The notes under the pieces: generated by a model | Told to the model about the DNA's origin: nothing | The model's input: the letters and a program-made list of their open reading frames with translations, nothing else | Databases searched by the model: none | Made by a program: the position numbers and the translations under genes | Origin: an uncultured Pseudomonadota bacterium | Lineage (GTDB): Bacteria; Oederibacteriota; Muellerivitia; Muellerivitales; Muellerivitaceae | Length of the DNA stretch: 64,000 nt | Assembly (NCBI GenBank): GCA_963770835.1 | Contig: CAVYRH010000004.1 | Location: 715,339 to 779,338 of the forward strand | Reading direction: 5' to 3' | Shown here: positions 51,285-64,000 of the stretch, one piece after another | Layout of the letters: the number at the start of each line of letters is the position of its first letter | Position numbering within the stretch: the stretch's first letter is position 1

Positions 51285-51377
51285 TGTCCACGACGGGCCC
51301 CTGAACCGAGGCAACAAGCCGAGGTTCGAGCTTTGGGTGTGCCGGTTCAAAACAGGAATTGGCCCCCGTCGTGGATA
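51285..51377. repeat. Inverted doublet of the TCCACGACGGG repeat
   Basis: tgtccacgacgggcccc (51285) and gcccccgtcgtggata (51362-51377) in opposite orientation. Confidence 0.7.
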
Positions 51378-56786: not shown

Positions 56787-56814
56787 TGTCCACGAAGGGG
56801 ACCCTTCGTGGACA
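56787..56814. repeat. 28-bp hairpin repeat R1
   Basis: TGTCCACGAAGGG-GA-CCCTTCGTGGACA, perfect 13-bp arms. Confidence 0.92.
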
Positions 56815-57612: not shown

Positions 57613-57640
57613 TGTCCACGACGGGGACCCGGAATGGACA
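57613..57640. repeat. 28-bp hairpin repeat R2
   Basis: TGTCCACGACGGGGACCCGGAATGGACA, 2 nt after the toxin stop. Confidence 0.92.
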
Positions 57641-58791: not shown

Positions 58792-58819
58792 TGTCCACGA
58801 CGGGGACCCTTCGTGGACA
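58792..58819. repeat. 28-bp hairpin repeat R3
   Basis: TGTCCACGACGGGGACCCTTCGTGGACA. Confidence 0.92.
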
Positions 58820-59112: not shown

Positions 59113-59140
59113 TGTCCACGACGGGGACCCGGATTGGACG
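59113..59140. repeat. 28-bp hairpin repeat R4
   Basis: TGTCCACGACGGGGACCCGGATTGGACG. Confidence 0.9.
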
Positions 59141-59167
59141 ATCTTTTTCGGCAGTTTTGAATGAACC

Positions 59168-59201
59168 TTGACTATCTCCCCAAAAGTCCTACAATGTAGG
59201 A
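59168..59201 (+). promoter_or_regulatory. Promoter and palindromic operator of the HigBA-type module
   Basis: TTGACT-16 nt-TACAAT overlapped by TCCTACA-A-TGTAGGA. Confidence 0.65.
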
Positions 59202-59202
59202 T

Positions 59203-59568
59203 ATGTCAAAAGGATGGGTGATGGAACGACACCATTTTATTCAGTCGCCTATCTATTCGAGACTGATCGACGCAATTCGCGAGGAGGGTTTGCAAGTCGC
59301 GATTGAAGAAGCCATCAATAACAACCCCGTTGGCGGGAAACTTTTAGGGGGCGGCATTCATAAGTTACGAATCGCCTCAACCAAGAGGCCCGAAGGGAAA
59401 AGCGGTGGTTACCGGGTTTGGTACTTTTTCGATGAGCCCGATGACATTTACCTTTTTTTCATCATTGATAAGCGAAAGGCTCCGGATTTAACGGTTGAGC
59501 AGGAAAAGATCCTAGTCCAGGACTTGCGGCAGGCTTTAAGCAAAGGGAAAACAGGAGGGAAGAAATGA
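59203..59568 (+). CDS. RelE/HigB-family toxin
   Basis: GGIHKLRIA...GKSGGYRVWYF; start may be 59221. Confidence 0.85.
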   Translation: MSKGWVMERHHFIQSPIYSRLIDAIREEGLQVAIEEAINNNPVGGKLLGGGIHKLRIASTKRPEGKSGGYRVWYFFDEPDDIYLFFIIDKRKAPDLTVEQEKILVQDLRQALSKGKTGGKK

Positions 59569-59864
59569 ACGATAAAGATTTCAAACTGATGCGGGAGAGT
59601 CTCAAGCAATCGATCGAGATCAAAAAAGGCAAGAAACTCCACGGCATGCGGGAAAGCTACCGGCCAAAACCAGCGACCGCTGATGAAGTAAAAGGTGTTC
59701 GTAAAGCTTTGCATTTAACCCAGGCAGGGTTTGCGGGGGTTGTGGGTGCAAGCCCTAATGCCATTGAACACTGGGAACAGGGCATTCGACGACCGAGTGG
59801 TTCCGCGTCAAAGCTGATCCGCATTCTTAAGTCCCATCCAGAACTGATCTCGGAAATACGCTAA
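59565..59864 (+). CDS. HigA-type XRE antitoxin
   Basis: LTQAGFA...IEHWEQG.RRPSGSA.KL. Confidence 0.87.
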   Translation: MNDKDFKLMRESLKQSIEIKKGKKLHGMRESYRPKPATADEVKGVRKALHLTQAGFAGVVGASPNAIEHWEQGIRRPSGSASKLIRILKSHPELISEIR

Positions 59865-59868
59865 GACC

Positions 59869-59896
59869 TGTCCACGACGGGGACCCGTAGTAGACA
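59869..59896. repeat. 28-bp hairpin repeat R5, abutting the 5' end of intron 1
   Basis: TGTCCACGACGGGGACCCGTAGTAGACA. Confidence 0.9.
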
Positions 59897-59897
59897 T

Positions 59898-60696
59898 CGT
59901 GCCAGAGGAGGGTTTGCAGAGCCAGCAGGTGAGGGAGTAGGCCGATGAGGGTCAACCCAAGTCCTGACCAGGTAATCACCAGAGAGCCTGGAAGTCAGCC
60001 CCCGGCGTAGGATCGAGAGGTCCTGCCCGAAACGGGGTCATAAACCTCATTTAGTGAGGGAACAATCCAGCAGTCCGCAACATCAAGTGAATCCTGCCGC
60101 TTCGTGAATGGGACACCGAAAGGTGCAAGGGGATGCCGAGCCGCGTGTCTACTGGCGAAGGCCACGATCCCGCTGAAGAATCTGGTAGCAAGCGGGGCAA
60201 GTCCTCCGGAGTATGGGGAACGGAATGTTGGAAAGGCTATGCAAGCAAGCTGGGAGATCCTACCCGCCAAAAGACTTGCCGCTATAAGGCTAAAACCGAA
60301 AAGAGGCAAGGGTGGGAGGAAGTCGGAGGGGGTCACAGTACCGATGAAGGGGTGGACAACAAAACCACCCTGAGGGAAGGACCCCTGCTTCAACCATGTG
60401 TCTCAAAGAAGGTAGGCGCTGGAGCATGCCCCAAAAGGGCCAACAACTCTGTAGTACCAAAGCGCGAGGCCTTTGACAACAGGCACTATGCCGAGCGGCC
60501 AAGGGGGAAGTCGAACCTGTAAAGCCGCCGGAGGAGAGGTTGTCGGAAAGCCGTATGATCGAAAAGGTCACGTACGGTTTGACGAGGGGGCGCTGGAAAC
60601 GAAGTGATGAGGGAACCTCGTTGGGGCACGGAACCGGAAACGGGGAAACAGATCAAGGAACCCTCTGCACACCATCGCGCCAGTGCTCTACTCTGC
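59898..60696 (+). ncRNA. ORF-less group II intron (intron 1); 5' boundary uncertain by 1-2 nt
   Basis: (C)GTGCC start; EBS1 hairpin GCC-GCGTGTCTACT-GGC; domain V AAAGCCGTATGATCGAAAAGGTCACGTACGGTTT (~60547-60580); domain VI GGCGCTGGAAACG...CGCGCCAGTGCTCT-A-CTCTGC; no RT ORF. Confidence 0.85.
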
Positions 60697-60756
60697 AGAC
60701 GAAAGGGTCAGGGTGGTCTGGCATCTTTTTTCATGGCGGAACGAGGGGGTGTTTTG

Positions 60757-62034
60757 ATGACTTTTCATTTGAGATCGCTATTTCTTTATTTTGGTTGGAC
60801 CTACTTATTAACGACGTTAAGTTTTGCCCAGGCCCTTGATCCTACCTTGGATAAACTTGGTTTCCATTACATTCCGGCTCTGAAAGTGACCGAAGTGTTG
60901 CCGAATGCCAAGGAGGTGACGGTGCGAGTGGGGAAGGAAAGTTACATTATTCGACAGTCGAAACCGTTCTTTCTTGAGGATGACTGTCTGGTCAAGAACT
61001 TGGAAAACCCGAAACCGGAGGGGGACAACGATTGGTGCTACCAGTCGGCCTATGTCCATTTCTCAAGGCCCAGACGTTACGCCTTTTGGATGGAGTCCAC
61101 GACCAATTGCCGGCTCACATCGGGGAGTTCGTCGGCGTCCTTTTTTGACGGTGACAAGGAGGTTTGGAACGAATCAGGCGGGCCGGACCCGATCATTTTT
61201 TTGAAAATGATCGAACCTTCGGGCACCGTAGCCTATTGCATCGGTCGCAACGGGACCCTTCAAAGCCTCGTCCTTCGCGATGCCACGGGAAAGACCTATT
61301 TTGAGGCGGACGGCGTTATGAACAAAATGCTTTCCGAGAATGGGAAATACCTGGCTTATATGACCGAGAGGCGCGGCCCCGTGACCATCCATCTGGTTTC
61401 CACCGATGATCCGAAGGACCATAAGACTTTCCCGGCCCCCGCGGAATTCGATTGGATCAGCGGGGATGGGAGGCGCCTTTTGACAGGCTCCAGTAATTAC
61501 AAGCTTAAAAATGACCAATGGTGGGGTATCAGCAATGAAGGCAAGATCCTGTTCACCTATGAAGCCGCCAATGTGCCGGACCAAGGCTGGTTGAGTATCG
61601 AAGGGTCTCCTGGCCAAACCGGGGTTGGGACTAAGCCCTTCTTTATAGGTGCCGTGAAGAATGATTCCATCCTCCTTTTTTACGACAAGGCTCGGGGGAA
61701 GGTGGTTTATTTAGGCGCGGAGGATGGAAAGACGATCTTGGAGGTCCCTATTCCAAAAGATATGGACCCCCTTTGGGTCGTTGAGGGGCGGGCTTATGAG
61801 GATGGCGACATGATCGCTTTGGGCAGCTTCCTGAAATCGCCGAACAAGGAAAAAACGATCGCGGGAAGATCGGCTGTCCTATTGAACTTAAAAAGCGAGA
61901 AACTTTGGGAACTTCAGGAGACGGTCGAGAAACCGGTGACCGGCCAGGAGTCCGATCGGCTTTTGGATGAATTCGATGGAAAGGTCGTGTTCCATTTCCA
62001 TACGGAACGCCGTTTTTCTTATGTTGTTAAGTGA
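60757..62034 (+). CDS. Hypothetical secreted protein (beta-propeller-like)
   Basis: RBS GAGGGGG at 60743, signal peptide ending SFA-Q; SENGKYLAY and SGDGRRLL repeats; the ORF-track start at 60604 lies inside intron 1. Confidence 0.7.
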   Translation: MTFHLRSLFLYFGWTYLLTTLSFAQALDPTLDKLGFHYIPALKVTEVLPNAKEVTVRVGKESYIIRQSKPFFLEDDCLVKNLENPKPEGDNDWCYQSAYVHFSRPRRYAFWMESTTNCRLTSGSSSASFFDGDKEVWNESGGPDPIIFLKMIEPSGTVAYCIGRNGTLQSLVLRDATGKTYFEADGVMNKMLSENGKYLAYMTERRGPVTIHLVSTDDPKDHKTFPAPAEFDWISGDGRRLLTGSSNYKLKNDQWWGISNEGKILFTYEAANVPDQGWLSIEGSPGQTGVGTKPFFIGAVKNDSILLFYDKARGKVVYLGAEDGKTILEVPIPKDMDPLWVVEGRAYEDGDMIALGSFLKSPNKEKTIAGRSAVLLNLKSEKLWELQETVEKPVTGQESDRLLDEFDGKVVFHFHTERRFSYVVK

Positions 62035-62044
62035 TGTTTGAAGT

Positions 62045-62055
62045 TGTCCACGACG
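62045..62055. repeat. Left part of hairpin repeat R6, split by intron 2
   Basis: TGTCCACGACG | intron | GGGA (63997-64000) rejoins to the consensus TGTCCACGACGGGGA. Confidence 0.9.
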
Positions 62056-63996
62056 GTGCGTCCAGAAAAGGCAGGTGTGTTCAGCAAGAGATAGTCTTGC
62101 ATGGGTAATAGCCAAAGCCCATTAGCTAGGATGGCAGGCAAGCGGGAAACCAAATGCCTGAAGCCCATCAACAAAGCCATCGAAAGGATGGTGAGCGAGT
62201 CGTCGGGCCGTAACGAAAGTAAATGCACAGGTGGCCCCGAAAACACTTGCCTCGGAGGCTGAGTCCGCCGTCGTGGGACGAAAGCATCATGGGACAGCGC
62301 GGAGAAATGGCTGAAGCGCTGGAACACTCCGACGGGGTGATAGCAACGGCACGAAGACAAGGACACGCCAAGCAACTGGAGAAACCCTCCTTGCCCCAGG
62401 CAGAAATGCTTGGAGAAAGGTAGGCCGTATAACCGTGACGCGGGAAAACGGTCGAAGGTGAGAGGGTTTAGGATGGGTTCATGGTAGCGATGAAGCGGGG
62501 TAATGCCCGTGGAGCGAAGGAACCCTGCTGTTGTTAAGTCCCTCGACAAAACGGAAGGCAGTGACGGTATGAAAAAGACGTCAATTAACCTGCAAGACCT
62601 GAGACGAGAGATATACGTCAAAGCGAAGGCTGAAAAGAACTGGAGTTTCTGGGGACTGTACACCCATGTTTGCAAGATGGAAACGCTTCAACAGGCTTAC
62701 CGAATGGCTAAGGTAAATAACGGAGCCCCTGGAATAGATGGGGTGACGTTTGATGCCATTGAGGAGGCCGGAGTGGAGTCGTTTCTGGAAAGCATCCGGG
62801 GTGAATTAGTTCAAGGCACGTATAAGCCCGTTCGAAACCGGAAGAAGGAAATACCCAAGGGAAATGGGAAGGTAAGAGTCCTTGGGATACCCAACATTCG
62901 GGATAGAGTAGTCCAGGGAGCACTGAAGTTTATTCTGGAACCGATTTTTGAGGCCGATTTTCAAGAAGGGTCCTATGGGTATCGACCCAAGCGGACCGCT
63001 CATGCGGCTGTGAACAGGGTAGCATCGGCAATCGTCTGTAGAAAAACCCGAGTCATTGATGTAGACCTCAAGGCATATTTCGACACGGTAAGGCACGACC
63101 TTCTGATGAAGAAAGTTGCCCGAAGGGTTGAGGATGAAACGGTGTTGAGATTGTTGAGGATGATCCTGAAGGCCAGCGGCAAAAGAGGAGTCCCGCAGGG
63201 AGGGGTTATTTCCCCTCTTCTGGCTAATCTCTACCTCAACGAGGTGGATAAGATGCTGGAAAAGGCAAAAGAAGTGACTCGGCAAGGGAAGAACAACTAT
63301 ATCGAATATGCGAGGTTCGCTGACGATATGGTGATCCTTGTTAATGGATATCCGCAATGGGAATGGTTGGCAAAGGCTGCCTACCGAAGGTTACTTGAAG
63401 AATTGACCAAGCTCGACTTGCAAATCAACACGGACAAGACGCGGATAGCAGACTTAACGAAAGGTGAAAGTTTCGGGTTTCTGGGGTTTGACTTTCGACA
63501 GGTGAAAACCCGTCGAGGGAAATGGGGGGTGAAGTTCACGCCGAAAATGAAGGCGCGAGCAACACTTCTGGGTAAGCTCAAGGAAACATTTGGAAGCTTC
63601 CAATCTCAGCCGGTGCAGAGGGTGATTGAGATTATCAATCCCAAACTGCGTGGGTGGGTGAATTACTTTCGGATAGGGAATTCTAGGCGCTGTTTTAACT
63701 ACGTGGAAAGATGGGTCGAGAATAAAATCAGACGGCATATGATGCGTGCGAAGAAGCTCGACGGTTTTGGGCGGGATAGGTGGAGTAGGGAGTGGATATA
63801 TAAGTATCTGGGGTTGTACAGAAGCTACCAAATACGATATTACCAAGAACCGAAAGCGCTACCCGTCTGATAGGTCACATAAACTTTGACAGGAAAGCAA
63901 CAGGTGAGCGTAGTGCGGGAAATCCGCACGCTACGTTCGAGGAGGCGGGGACTGGAAACGGAGCCAGAAGGCCACCGCACCAGTCCTCGACCCTAC
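62056..63996 (+). mobile_element. Complete RT-encoding group II intron (intron 2)
   Basis: 5' GTGCG; EBS1 hairpin GTCC-GCCGTCGTG-GGAC; domain V TGAGCGTAGTGCGGGAAATCCGCACGCTACGTTCG (~63905-63939); domain VI with bulged A, ends CCCTAC. Confidence 0.95.
62569..63870 (+). CDS. ltrA: Group II intron reverse transcriptase/maturase, no endonuclease domain
   Basis: GAPGIDG, LGIP..RDRVVQ, SYGYRP, GVPQGGVISPLLANLYL, RFADD, FLGF, X domain LRGWVNYF; ends without HNH. Confidence 0.95.
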   Translation: MKKTSINLQDLRREIYVKAKAEKNWSFWGLYTHVCKMETLQQAYRMAKVNNGAPGIDGVTFDAIEEAGVESFLESIRGELVQGTYKPVRNRKKEIPKGNGKVRVLGIPNIRDRVVQGALKFILEPIFEADFQEGSYGYRPKRTAHAAVNRVASAIVCRKTRVIDVDLKAYFDTVRHDLLMKKVARRVEDETVLRLLRMILKASGKRGVPQGGVISPLLANLYLNEVDKMLEKAKEVTRQGKNNYIEYARFADDMVILVNGYPQWEWLAKAAYRRLLEELTKLDLQINTDKTRIADLTKGESFGFLGFDFRQVKTRRGKWGVKFTPKMKARATLLGKLKETFGSFQSQPVQRVIEIINPKLRGWVNYFRIGNSRRCFNYVERWVENKIRRHMMRAKKLDGFGRDRWSREWIYKYLGLYRSYQIRYYQEPKALPV

Positions 63997-64000
63997 GGGA

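What the first reader, a model, noticed from the sequence alone, without database searches (positions are those of the whole stretch)
59869..64000. Two different group II introns both home to the cassette repeat through matching EBS1 loops
Seen: intron 2 is inserted exactly inside R6 (TGTCCACGACG | GTGCG...CCCTAC | GGGA), and its EBS1 loop CGTCGTG is the perfect complement of the exon end CACGACG in the invariant left arm. Intron 1 abuts the right end of R5, and its loop GTGTCTACT is complementary to AGTAGACAT (one G-U pair), the variant right arm unique to R5. Established: EBS1-IBS1 pairing sets group II target choice, and IIC-attC introns target integron attC sites. Inference: independent intron lineages have specialised on this repeat as a multi-copy safe harbour, parallel to attC-targeting introns. 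R2-R5 carry the same IBS1 and are empty targets for intron 2. The RT could conceivably take part in making cassettes.
Basis: partly seen in the sequence, partly recalled or inferred. Interest (0 to 1): 0.78.

Follow-up and report, generated by a model that had tools for sequence, protein, structure and literature searches.

The report
Introns converge on gene-cassette palindrome
Two unrelated mobile introns sit again and again at two fixed bases of a 28-base repeat that separates gene cassettes in an uncultured soil bacterium, and their guide loops match those bases and change in step with them in relatives, so they likely home there, as known introns do at integron sites.

Summary
Confirmed and extended. 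The genome holds about 95 copies of the 28-bp cassette repeat. Intron 2 (class F/g2) has 12 near-identical copies, 10 at repeat base 11|12. ORF-less intron 1 has 14 copies, 12 at base 28|29. Four sites carry both. EBS1, EBS2 and EBS3 of both introns covary with their targets across homologs. A third, unrelated lineage in a relative uses base 19|20.

Corrections: intron 1 starts at 59897 (UCGUG), so the 'T' of the claimed G-U pair is intron base 1. It targets the ordinary right arm (11 of 12 sites), not an R5 variant. Neither intron is a IIC-attC intron, and the repeat is not an attC: no integron integrase in 31 family genomes. It fits a 13-GA-13 serine-recombinase site, with a shortened recombinase as unproven candidate. 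'Safe harbour' fits intron 1 only; intron 2 splits the site. Cassette-making by the RT is unsupported.

The scan reported the cassette system, and one ORF-less intron at it, before on other genomes. Nothing was tested at the bench, and no spliced RNA was seen.

The parts
56787..56814 (+). R1, 28-bp cassette site; one mismatch to intron 2 EBS1, +1 base G
57613..57640 (+). R2, empty site carrying IBS1 and IBS2 for intron 2
58792..58819 (+). R3, empty site that fits both introns (CCC, GTGGACA and +1 A for intron 1)
59113..59140 (+). R4, empty site carrying IBS1 and IBS2 for intron 2
59203..59864 (+). RelE-like plus HTH antitoxin cassette between R4 and R5; promoter-like site at 59168-59195
59869..59896 (+). 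R5, intact site; 5' exon of intron 1 (IBS1 = bases 22-28, IBS2 = bases 16-18)
59897..60696 (+). Intron 1: 800-nt ORF-less group II intron, ends UCGUG...GC; 14 copies in the genome
60110..60112 (+). Intron 1 EBS2 (GGG), pairs with exon -11 to -13
60146..60152 (+). Intron 1 EBS1 (UGUCUAC), pairs with exon -1 to -7
60214..60214 (+). Intron 1 EBS3 (U), pairs with +1 A
60754..62034 (+). Cassette ORF between the two introns, 426 aa, no Pfam family
62045..62055 (+). R6 bases 1-11; 5' exon of intron 2 (IBS2 = bases 1-3, IBS1 = bases 5-11)
62056..63996 (+). Intron 2: 1941-nt class F/g2 group II intron; 12 copies in the genome
62243..62245 (+). Intron 2 EBS2 (ACA); covariation shown for 62244 and 62245
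62269..62275 (+). Intron 2 EBS1 (CGUCGUG)
62340..62340 (+). Intron 2 EBS3 (A); mismatches the +1 G of the repeat, but is C in 5 of 7 family relatives with this EBS1
62569..63870 (+). Intron-encoded RT/maturase, 433 aa, FADD motif, no endonuclease domain
63997..64000 (+). R6 bases 12-15 (GGGA), cut by the contig end

Best explanation
Two unrelated group II introns lie at fixed bases of the 28-bp cassette repeat, and their three exon-binding elements match the repeat, so they likely retrohome into it by RNA-DNA pairing after being retargeted from other targets. Shown: positions, copy numbers, EBS1/EBS2/EBS3 covariation, separate ancestry, and other targets in sister introns. Intron 2's relatives mostly hit domain V of other introns; a sister of intron 1 hits a 16-bp motif found at integrase gene ends. 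Inferred: endonuclease-free reverse splicing at the replication fork; mobilisation of ORF-less intron 1 in trans by a related protein; and that the repeat is a 13-GA-13 crossover site, probably for a shortened serine recombinase. If so, intron 1 leaves the site usable and would ride at the head of the downstream cassette, while intron 2 splits the site and would lock two cassettes together.
For: Intron 2: 10 of 12 copies at base 11|12 (9 of 10 distinct flanks), while only 62 of 605 genomic CACGACG lie in a top-strand site; binomial p about 1e-8. Intron 1: 12 of 14 copies at base 28|29 against 36 of 391, p 3e-11; 4 of 4 copies of three related introns too. Across 45 distinct homolog-flank sets, the best covarying column for each exon position -1 to -7 is intron 214-220, and for -10, -11 and +1 it is 189, 190 and 285. 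Intron 1 family: EBS2 GGG/CCC, ACC/GGT, GUGUC/GACAC; EBS3 U/A, C/G, G/C; EBS1 UGUCCAA at a TTGGACA arm. Outside this genome 6 of 7 family loci with the CGUCGUG loop are at the repeat. Intron 1 family copies sit at the site in 6 other family genomes (G048, G050, G055, G064, G070, one more G048 copy: 5 genomes) and in metagenome contigs. A third lineage sits at base 19|20 in 2 of 2 copies. The lineages are not one clade.
Against: Intron 2's EBS3 mismatches the repeat in all 10 site-borne copies. The common EBS1 of intron 1 has a U-G wobble on the ordinary arm. 2 of 12 and 2 of 14 copies are off target. Homologs are related, so covariation counts overstate independence. The binomial tests ignore purifying selection against insertions in genes. 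The recombinase is unproven and was found in only 7 of 31 family genomes. One duplicated-flank pair differs left of the proposed crossover.
Confidence: 0.85

Rival explanations
1. The introns insert at any matching 7-mer and pile up in the repeat only because insertions elsewhere are purged; there is no specialisation.
For: Off-target copies exist: a GH43 gene, a transposase gene, a degenerate site. Most of the genome is coding.
Against: EBS1 plus EBS2 alone narrow intron 2 to 102 genomic matches, and 72 of 85 full matches for intron 1 lie in repeats. The same loop is kept at 83-97% intron identity across 5 genera, with EBS3 = C matching the repeat in 5 of 7.
Confidence: 0.08
2. The introns recognise the repeat as a single-stranded hairpin, as IIC-attC introns recognise attC.
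For: The repeat is a near-perfect palindrome. Endonuclease-free introns use fork DNA (PMC4424553, passages). In this genome 16 of 16 intron-1-family insertions in sites use the top strand although bottom-strand matches are more common, which sequence pairing alone does not explain.
Against: Both introns have EBS2 and a 7-bp EBS1, unlike IIC. Off-target sites lack the palindrome but keep the IBS elements. G048 has at least 4 bottom-strand insertions.
Confidence: 0.04
3. The intron RT makes the cassettes by copying mRNA into units bounded by the repeat.
For: Introns sit at cassette borders; a role in cassette formation was proposed for IIC-attC introns (title seen in the reference list of PMC4424553; paper not read).
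Against: G044, G047, G053 and G073 hold 38, 34, 17 and 10 sites and show no intron in three searches, though assemblies can drop repeats. A cassette carries a promoter-like site, and others hold several genes or antisense genes. The introns' relatives use unrelated targets, so they look like late arrivals.
Confidence: 0.02
4. The junctions are assembly artefacts made by collapsing repeats.
For: Several copies lie at contig ends, and two share flanks (C3:1721 and C24:22296).
Against: Most copies have unique flanks on both sides. The same junctions recur in independent genomes, and an empty allele of one filled site exists.
Confidence: 0.01

Closest known systems
Group IIC-attC introns (S.ma.I2 and relatives; PMC7923331 and PMC4424553, passages)
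   Same: Endonuclease-free introns that colonise the repeated recombination sites of gene-cassette arrays.
   Different: IIC-attC introns use a 3-4 bp IBS1, no IBS2 and a stem-loop, and insert antisense on the bottom strand of attC. These introns use 7-bp EBS1 + EBS2 + EBS3, lie mostly sense, have an AGC triad, fall in other clades, and hit a non-attC 28-mer at three different bases.
Class F / g2 introns (B.th.I3, Mx.xa.I1, W.e.I5; PMC3552965)
   Same: Intron 2: RT-X protein of similar size with FADD, 49% identical to B.th.I3 and grouped with it at 100 SH-aLRT.
   Different: Listed g2 members sit in transposases, a hypothetical gene or non-coding DNA (Table S2). Close homologs here mostly hit domain V of other introns; the FCPU426 clade hits the cassette site.
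IIB introns in integron arrays and CALINs (UHB.I2, H.ha.F1/F2; PMC7923331, passages)
   Same: IIB-type introns sense to the cassettes, next to the site; UHB.I2 also has U-first, G-penultimate ends (UUGCG..GU).
   Different: Those are isolated cases at true attC sites with no conserved flanks reported; here the target base is fixed, multi-copy and explained by EBS pairing.
Bacterial ORF-less group II introns helped in trans (PMC4424553, passages)
   Same: Intron 1 lacks an ORF and shares its genome with relatives that encode intact proteins.
   Different: 14 near-identical copies imply active spread; other ORF-less forms of 782-828 nt sit at the same repeat in G048, G049, G055 and G064.
Integrons/CALINs and serine integrases (for the target)
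   Same: Co-oriented, mostly single-gene cassettes with many toxin-antitoxin pairs; identical cassettes with different neighbours.
   Different: No IntI in 31 genomes. The site is 28 bp with an invariant central GA. The candidate enzyme lacks the zinc-ribbon domain that carries the directionality coiled coil in serine integrases (PMC5499577, passages).

Membership tests
Group II intron | Ribozyme domains I-VI with DV triad and bulged A | tested here: met
   Rfam RF02003 for both introns, RF00029 for intron 1; DV and DVI of intron 2 read by eye, no Rfam hit at the gathering score
Group II intron | RT + maturase protein in DIV | tested here: met
   Intron 2: RVT_1 + GIIM, TIGR04416 above cut-off. 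Intron 1 has none; its relative I1c passes
Group II intron | Splices and retrohomes | not testable with these tools
   No usable RNA reads; mobility inferred from identical copies
Class F / g2 (intron 2) | FADD in RT5, no endonuclease domain | tested here: met
   criterion from PMC3552965
Class F / g2 (intron 2) | Clade with g2 references | tested here: met
   100 SH-aLRT with B.th.I3, the only g2 reference obtained; quick trees
Named ORF class (intron 1 family) | Clade with a named class | tested here: inconclusive
   Own clade; not with g1, g2, g3, D or C references; near unclassified Rh.sp.I1 but unresolved; no class E, g4 or basal F reference was available
IIB-type target recognition | EBS1-IBS1, EBS2-IBS2 and EBS3-IBS3 pairing | tested here: met
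   Covariation; intron 2's own EBS3 mismatches the repeat
Group IIC-attC introns | Class C protein clade and CGC triad | tested here: not met
   Two integron-linked plasmid introns with CGC form a separate clade; window introns have AGC
Group IIC-attC introns | Short IBS1 (TTGT/T), no IBS2, antisense insertion | tested here: not met
   7-bp IBS1, IBS2 present, all site-borne copies in this genome sense
Integron attC | R''/R' boxes ending in GTTRRRY | tested here: not met
   Position counts over 92 sites show a 28-bp TGTCC...GGACA palindrome with variable flanks
Integron attC | Integron integrase IntI | tested here: not met
   TIGR02249: 0 of 31 family genomes; positive control 508 bits; genomes are 63-99% complete
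dif / Xer site | Is the site of the host Xer recombinase | tested here: not met
   No repeat match better than 10 mismatches in 30 xer loci; a different AT-rich palindrome lies upstream of most xer genes, seen by eye. Binding not tested
Serine-recombinase crossover site | Arms around a conserved asymmetric central dinucleotide; exchange inside the site | tested here: inconclusive
   Central G 92 of 92, A 90 of 92; right arms travel with the downstream cassette; crossover bounded only to about bases 7-18; one discordant pair
Serine-recombinase crossover site | A cognate recombinase acts on it | not testable with these tools
   Short recombinase ends near a site in 8 of 8 loci examined, 0 of 18 full-length relatives; found in 7 of 31 genomes

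The most novel reading that the evidence does not exclude
An integron-like gene-cassette system run by a shortened serine recombinase has its own retroelement ecology. At least three unrelated group II intron lineages rewrote their guides to hit three different bases of the 28-bp crossover site. One rides cassettes without harming the site, two destroy the site and freeze the array, and an IS110 in turn targets the riding intron.
Probability: 0.5. Interest if true: 0.8.

Novelty: new variant of a known kind. Interest (0 to 1): 0.62.

Why it matters
A review lists three target specificities for bacterial group II introns: ordinary homing sites, terminators and attC (PMC4424553, passages). This is ordinary homing turned on a cassette recombination site, reached at least three times by non-IIC lineages, with the former targets still visible in sister introns. 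It gives natural before-and-after pairs for all three EBS elements and a natural U1/G(n-1) versus G1/A(n-1) swap. It also marks the 28-mer as a long-lived, abundant site in a candidate new gene-capture system. It makes a sharp test: intron 1 should leave recombination intact and intron 2 should block it.

Tried and rejected
1) A 2-nt 5' extension on intron 1 was my first reading. Rejected: UCGUG/GCGUG is itself the GUGYG-type start, and base 1 covaries with the penultimate base. 2) The repeat as dif: the single Xer-like gene tracks the same clade (29 of 30 family genomes) but has its own palindrome. 3) The multi-copy tyrosine integrase family as cassette enzyme: no consistent link to arrays; its gene ends carry a different 16-bp motif. 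4) RAYT/REP: 11 Y1_Tnp matches look like IS200-type copies or lie far from arrays, judged by eye. 5) The first frame test was uninformative and was redone. 6) Whole-domain MFE folds are stable (z about -3.2) but misfold intron 1's EBS1 loop, also the local fold, so the EBS calls rest on covariation. 7) GC skew gave no usable terminus, so replication bias was not tested. 8) Reads: only contigs; a 59139-62040 joint with 24 letters on one side joins two repeats and is no evidence. 9) Viral contigs: 0 matches to the repeat. 10) The careful tree did not finish; row L084 was a mis-picked ORF and was dropped, with 16 other rows, for the 27-row tree. 11) One search used a wrong EBS2 register for one sub-clade, fixed, where L172 still parses wrongly. 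12) The automatic occupancy count (7 and 13) misses sites cut by contig ends and 27-bp variants; the counts reported are from its printed junction list. 13) PMC2525955 and PMC2714756 are not held, and the class boundary figure of PMC4028801 (old .doc) could not be read; either may describe UCGUG/GCGUG starts or name intron 1's class.
Full report
THE OBSERVATION. The window is the end of contig C4 of G000. Record titles of close relatives name candidate division FCPU426. Five whole copies of a 28-bp palindrome (R1-R5) and a split sixth separate co-oriented cassettes, among them three toxin-antitoxin pairs. Both introns are real by Rfam and Pfam. Intron 2 spans 62056-63996 and lies between bases 11 and 12 of R6. 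Intron 1 has no ORF and follows base 28 of R5.

COPIES IN THE GENOME. After removing intron copies in silico the genome has 95 sites (94). Intron 2 has 12 copies, 11 at 100% and one at 99.95%. Ten sit at base 11|12; two of these share flanks, so 9 are distinct. The other two lie antisense in one duplicated DDE-type transposase gene, named by eye. Intron 1 has 14 copies: 12 at base 28|29, one in a GH43 gene, one at a degenerate site. Three relatives with ORFs (4 copies) are also at 28|29, and four sites hold both introns. Only 62 of 605 genomic CACGACG and 36 of 391 GTRGACA|A lie in top-strand sites, so the enrichment is strong (p about 1e-8 and 3e-11; selection is ignored in these tests).

BOUNDARY CORRECTION. 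Intron 1 starts at 59897 with UCGUG, two bases before the GTGCC that looks like a start. None of 62 empty sites ending in GACA is followed by T. A cassette filled in G070 has an empty allele in G048 that lacks the two bases. Removing them restores the GH43 frame (0 stops, against 5-9 if kept). Base 1 covaries with the penultimate base: U/G in 20 copies, G/A in 4 (redundant copies), and G/A in two lineages of this genome. Such a first-penultimate contact is known (PMC4238363, passages), and UUGCG..GU ends were reported before (PMC7923331, passages). So EBS1 is UGUCUAC, flush with the splice site. It pairs with the ordinary GTGGACA arm through one U-G wobble at 11 of 12 sites; R5 simply fits better.

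THE LOOPS ARE EBS ELEMENTS. Of 78 homolog loci of intron 2, 62 could be parsed and 48 have at least 5 Watson-Crick pairs in the same register; several misses are mis-called 5' ends. In 45 distinct sets with both ends (35 distinct intron 5' sequences), the best column for each of exon positions -1 to -7 is intron 214-220 (64-96% paired). Positions -10 and -11 go with 189-190 (84%) and +1 with 285 (71%). For the intron 1 family, EBS2 changes with its target (GGG/CCC, ACC/GGT, GUGUC/GACAC) and so does EBS3 (U/A, C/G, G/C). Against a perfect fit: intron 2's EBS3 is A opposite a +1 G at all 10 site-borne copies, although it is C in 5 of 7 family relatives with this EBS1.

WHERE THEY CAME FROM. Intron 2 groups with the g2 reference B.th.I3 at 100 SH-aLRT and has the FADD motif that PMC3552965 gives for g2. 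Outside FCPU426, roughly 35-40 of the 62 parsed homologs sit at the 3' end of domain V of other group II introns, judged by eye, with AACCGU-type loops. Inside the family, 6 of 7 loci with the CGUCGUG loop are at the repeat (5 exactly, one shifted by 3 bases); two relatives with other loops sit elsewhere. The intron 1 family is a separate, unclassified clade. Its sisters (I1e and 4 metagenome loci) target a 16-bp motif that occurs 12 times in G000, 3 of them within the last codons of tyrosine integrase genes. A third lineage in G054, 39% identical to intron 2's protein, sits at base 19|20 in 2 of 2 copies, with a matching loop read by eye. A single clade of the three is rejected (AU p 1e-33). 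Two integron-linked class C references fall elsewhere.

THE TARGET. The repeat occurs in 26 of 30 other family genomes, 1 of 1 of the same order and 0 of 67 others. Identical cassettes have different neighbours, and the right arm travels with the downstream cassette; one pair is discordant. It is not attC, and no IntI was found in 31 genomes. It is not dif, since the single Xer gene has its own palindrome. The central GA is almost invariant (92 and 90 of 92), giving 13-GA-13; that this resembles serine-recombinase sites is recalled knowledge. A 275-aa Resolvase + Recombinase protein without the zinc ribbon heads a group of 19 proteins of 275-283 aa (query included). Its gene ends close to a site in 8 of 8 loci examined: 9-35 nt in six, about 60 nt from the intron end in G055 where intron 2 interrupts that site, and one frameshifted copy. 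None of 18 full-length relatives has a site in the 45-831 nt visible downstream. Four further partial matches were not examined or are cut by contig ends. It was found in only 7 of 31 genomes, and site-rich G044, G047 and G067 lack it, so it stays a candidate.

MECHANISM. Shown: fixed positions, three covarying pairings, separate origins. Inferred: endonuclease-free reverse splicing at forks (PMC4424553 and PMC8919778, passages). Also inferred: intron 1 borrows a protein. It is 92% identical over 550 nt to relatives whose ORF start is interrupted by IS110, and 79% to an intact one. Intron 1 leaves the site whole and would travel with the next cassette, but no moved intron-plus-cassette unit was found among 16 flanks checked. 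Intron 2 cuts two bases from the GA and would disable the site. The top-strand bias in G000 (16 of 16) is unexplained; G048 has bottom-strand copies.

WHAT IS KNOWN. IIC-attC introns are the functional analogue; membership fails on clade, triad, IBS layout and orientation. Nine literature searches (listings and abstract starts only, open-access library) showed no paper on introns homing to a serine-recombinase cassette site. Papers seen: PMC3552965 (parts 1-3 of 4, Table S2 whole, Table S1 searched); passages of PMC7923331, PMC4028801, PMC4424553, PMC4238363, PMC5499577, PMC12584367 and PMC8919778. The scan's own notes, looked up after I had found the recombinase, report the same cassette system in other genomes and one ORF-less intron at it; these are unchecked and not independent support.

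VERDICT. A real, well-supported new variant of site-specialised group II introns. Interest 0.62.

Noticed in passing
G000:C11:156053-157117 (L182, L210-L239): Family f1 and the one other genome of the order have a single Xer-like recombinase clade (54-79% identity; other families show only 26-34% matches, often two). An AT-rich palindrome just upstream looks like its dif site.
   Followed up: partly
G000:C17:12078-12902 (L279): Shortened serine recombinase ending next to a repeat, antisense to the cassettes, inside a 7-kb unit with ArdC, RadC and a toxin-antitoxin pair; may be a mobile element that supplies the enzyme.
   Followed up: partly
window 60447|60448 equivalent; G000 C2, C3, C11, C20, C26: All 6 copies of a 1522-bp IS110 in the genome sit at one position inside intron-1-family introns: a third layer of targeting.
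   Followed up: partly
L015-L083: Many g2-type homologs of intron 2 insert at the 3' end of domain V of other group II introns, across several phyla; one Rhodothermales chromosome gave 15 or more loci.
   Followed up: partly
G000 C1:8362, C5:233338, C5:241431, C2:234160, C19:427478 and 7 more: A 16-bp motif, at the 3' end of a multi-copy tyrosine integrase family and elsewhere, is the target of sister intron I1e; probably an attachment core.
   Followed up: partly
L125, L126 (G054:C1:223031, C2:1476544): Third, unclassified intron lineage inserted at base 19|20 of the repeat.
   Followed up: partly
L348/L352 (G051:C7:117291-118492): Two ORF-less relatives of intron 2 in tandem at one site, both starting GCGCG.
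   Followed up: no
G000:C4:389639-390439 (L312): Off-target copy of intron 1 interrupts a GH43 gene in sense; splicing would restore the frame.
   Followed up: yes
window 51285-51377: Two half-matches to the repeat's left part in inverted orientation, about 90 bp apart, outside the array.
   Followed up: no
window 62490-62520: Contigs in four runs share this stretch of intron 2 and continue with other sequence on both sides, probably another intron family with the same motif.
   Followed up: no
G000:C26:881500-882250: A/T-rich stretch with many GGTAG-type short repeats between a site and an integrase gene.
   Followed up: no
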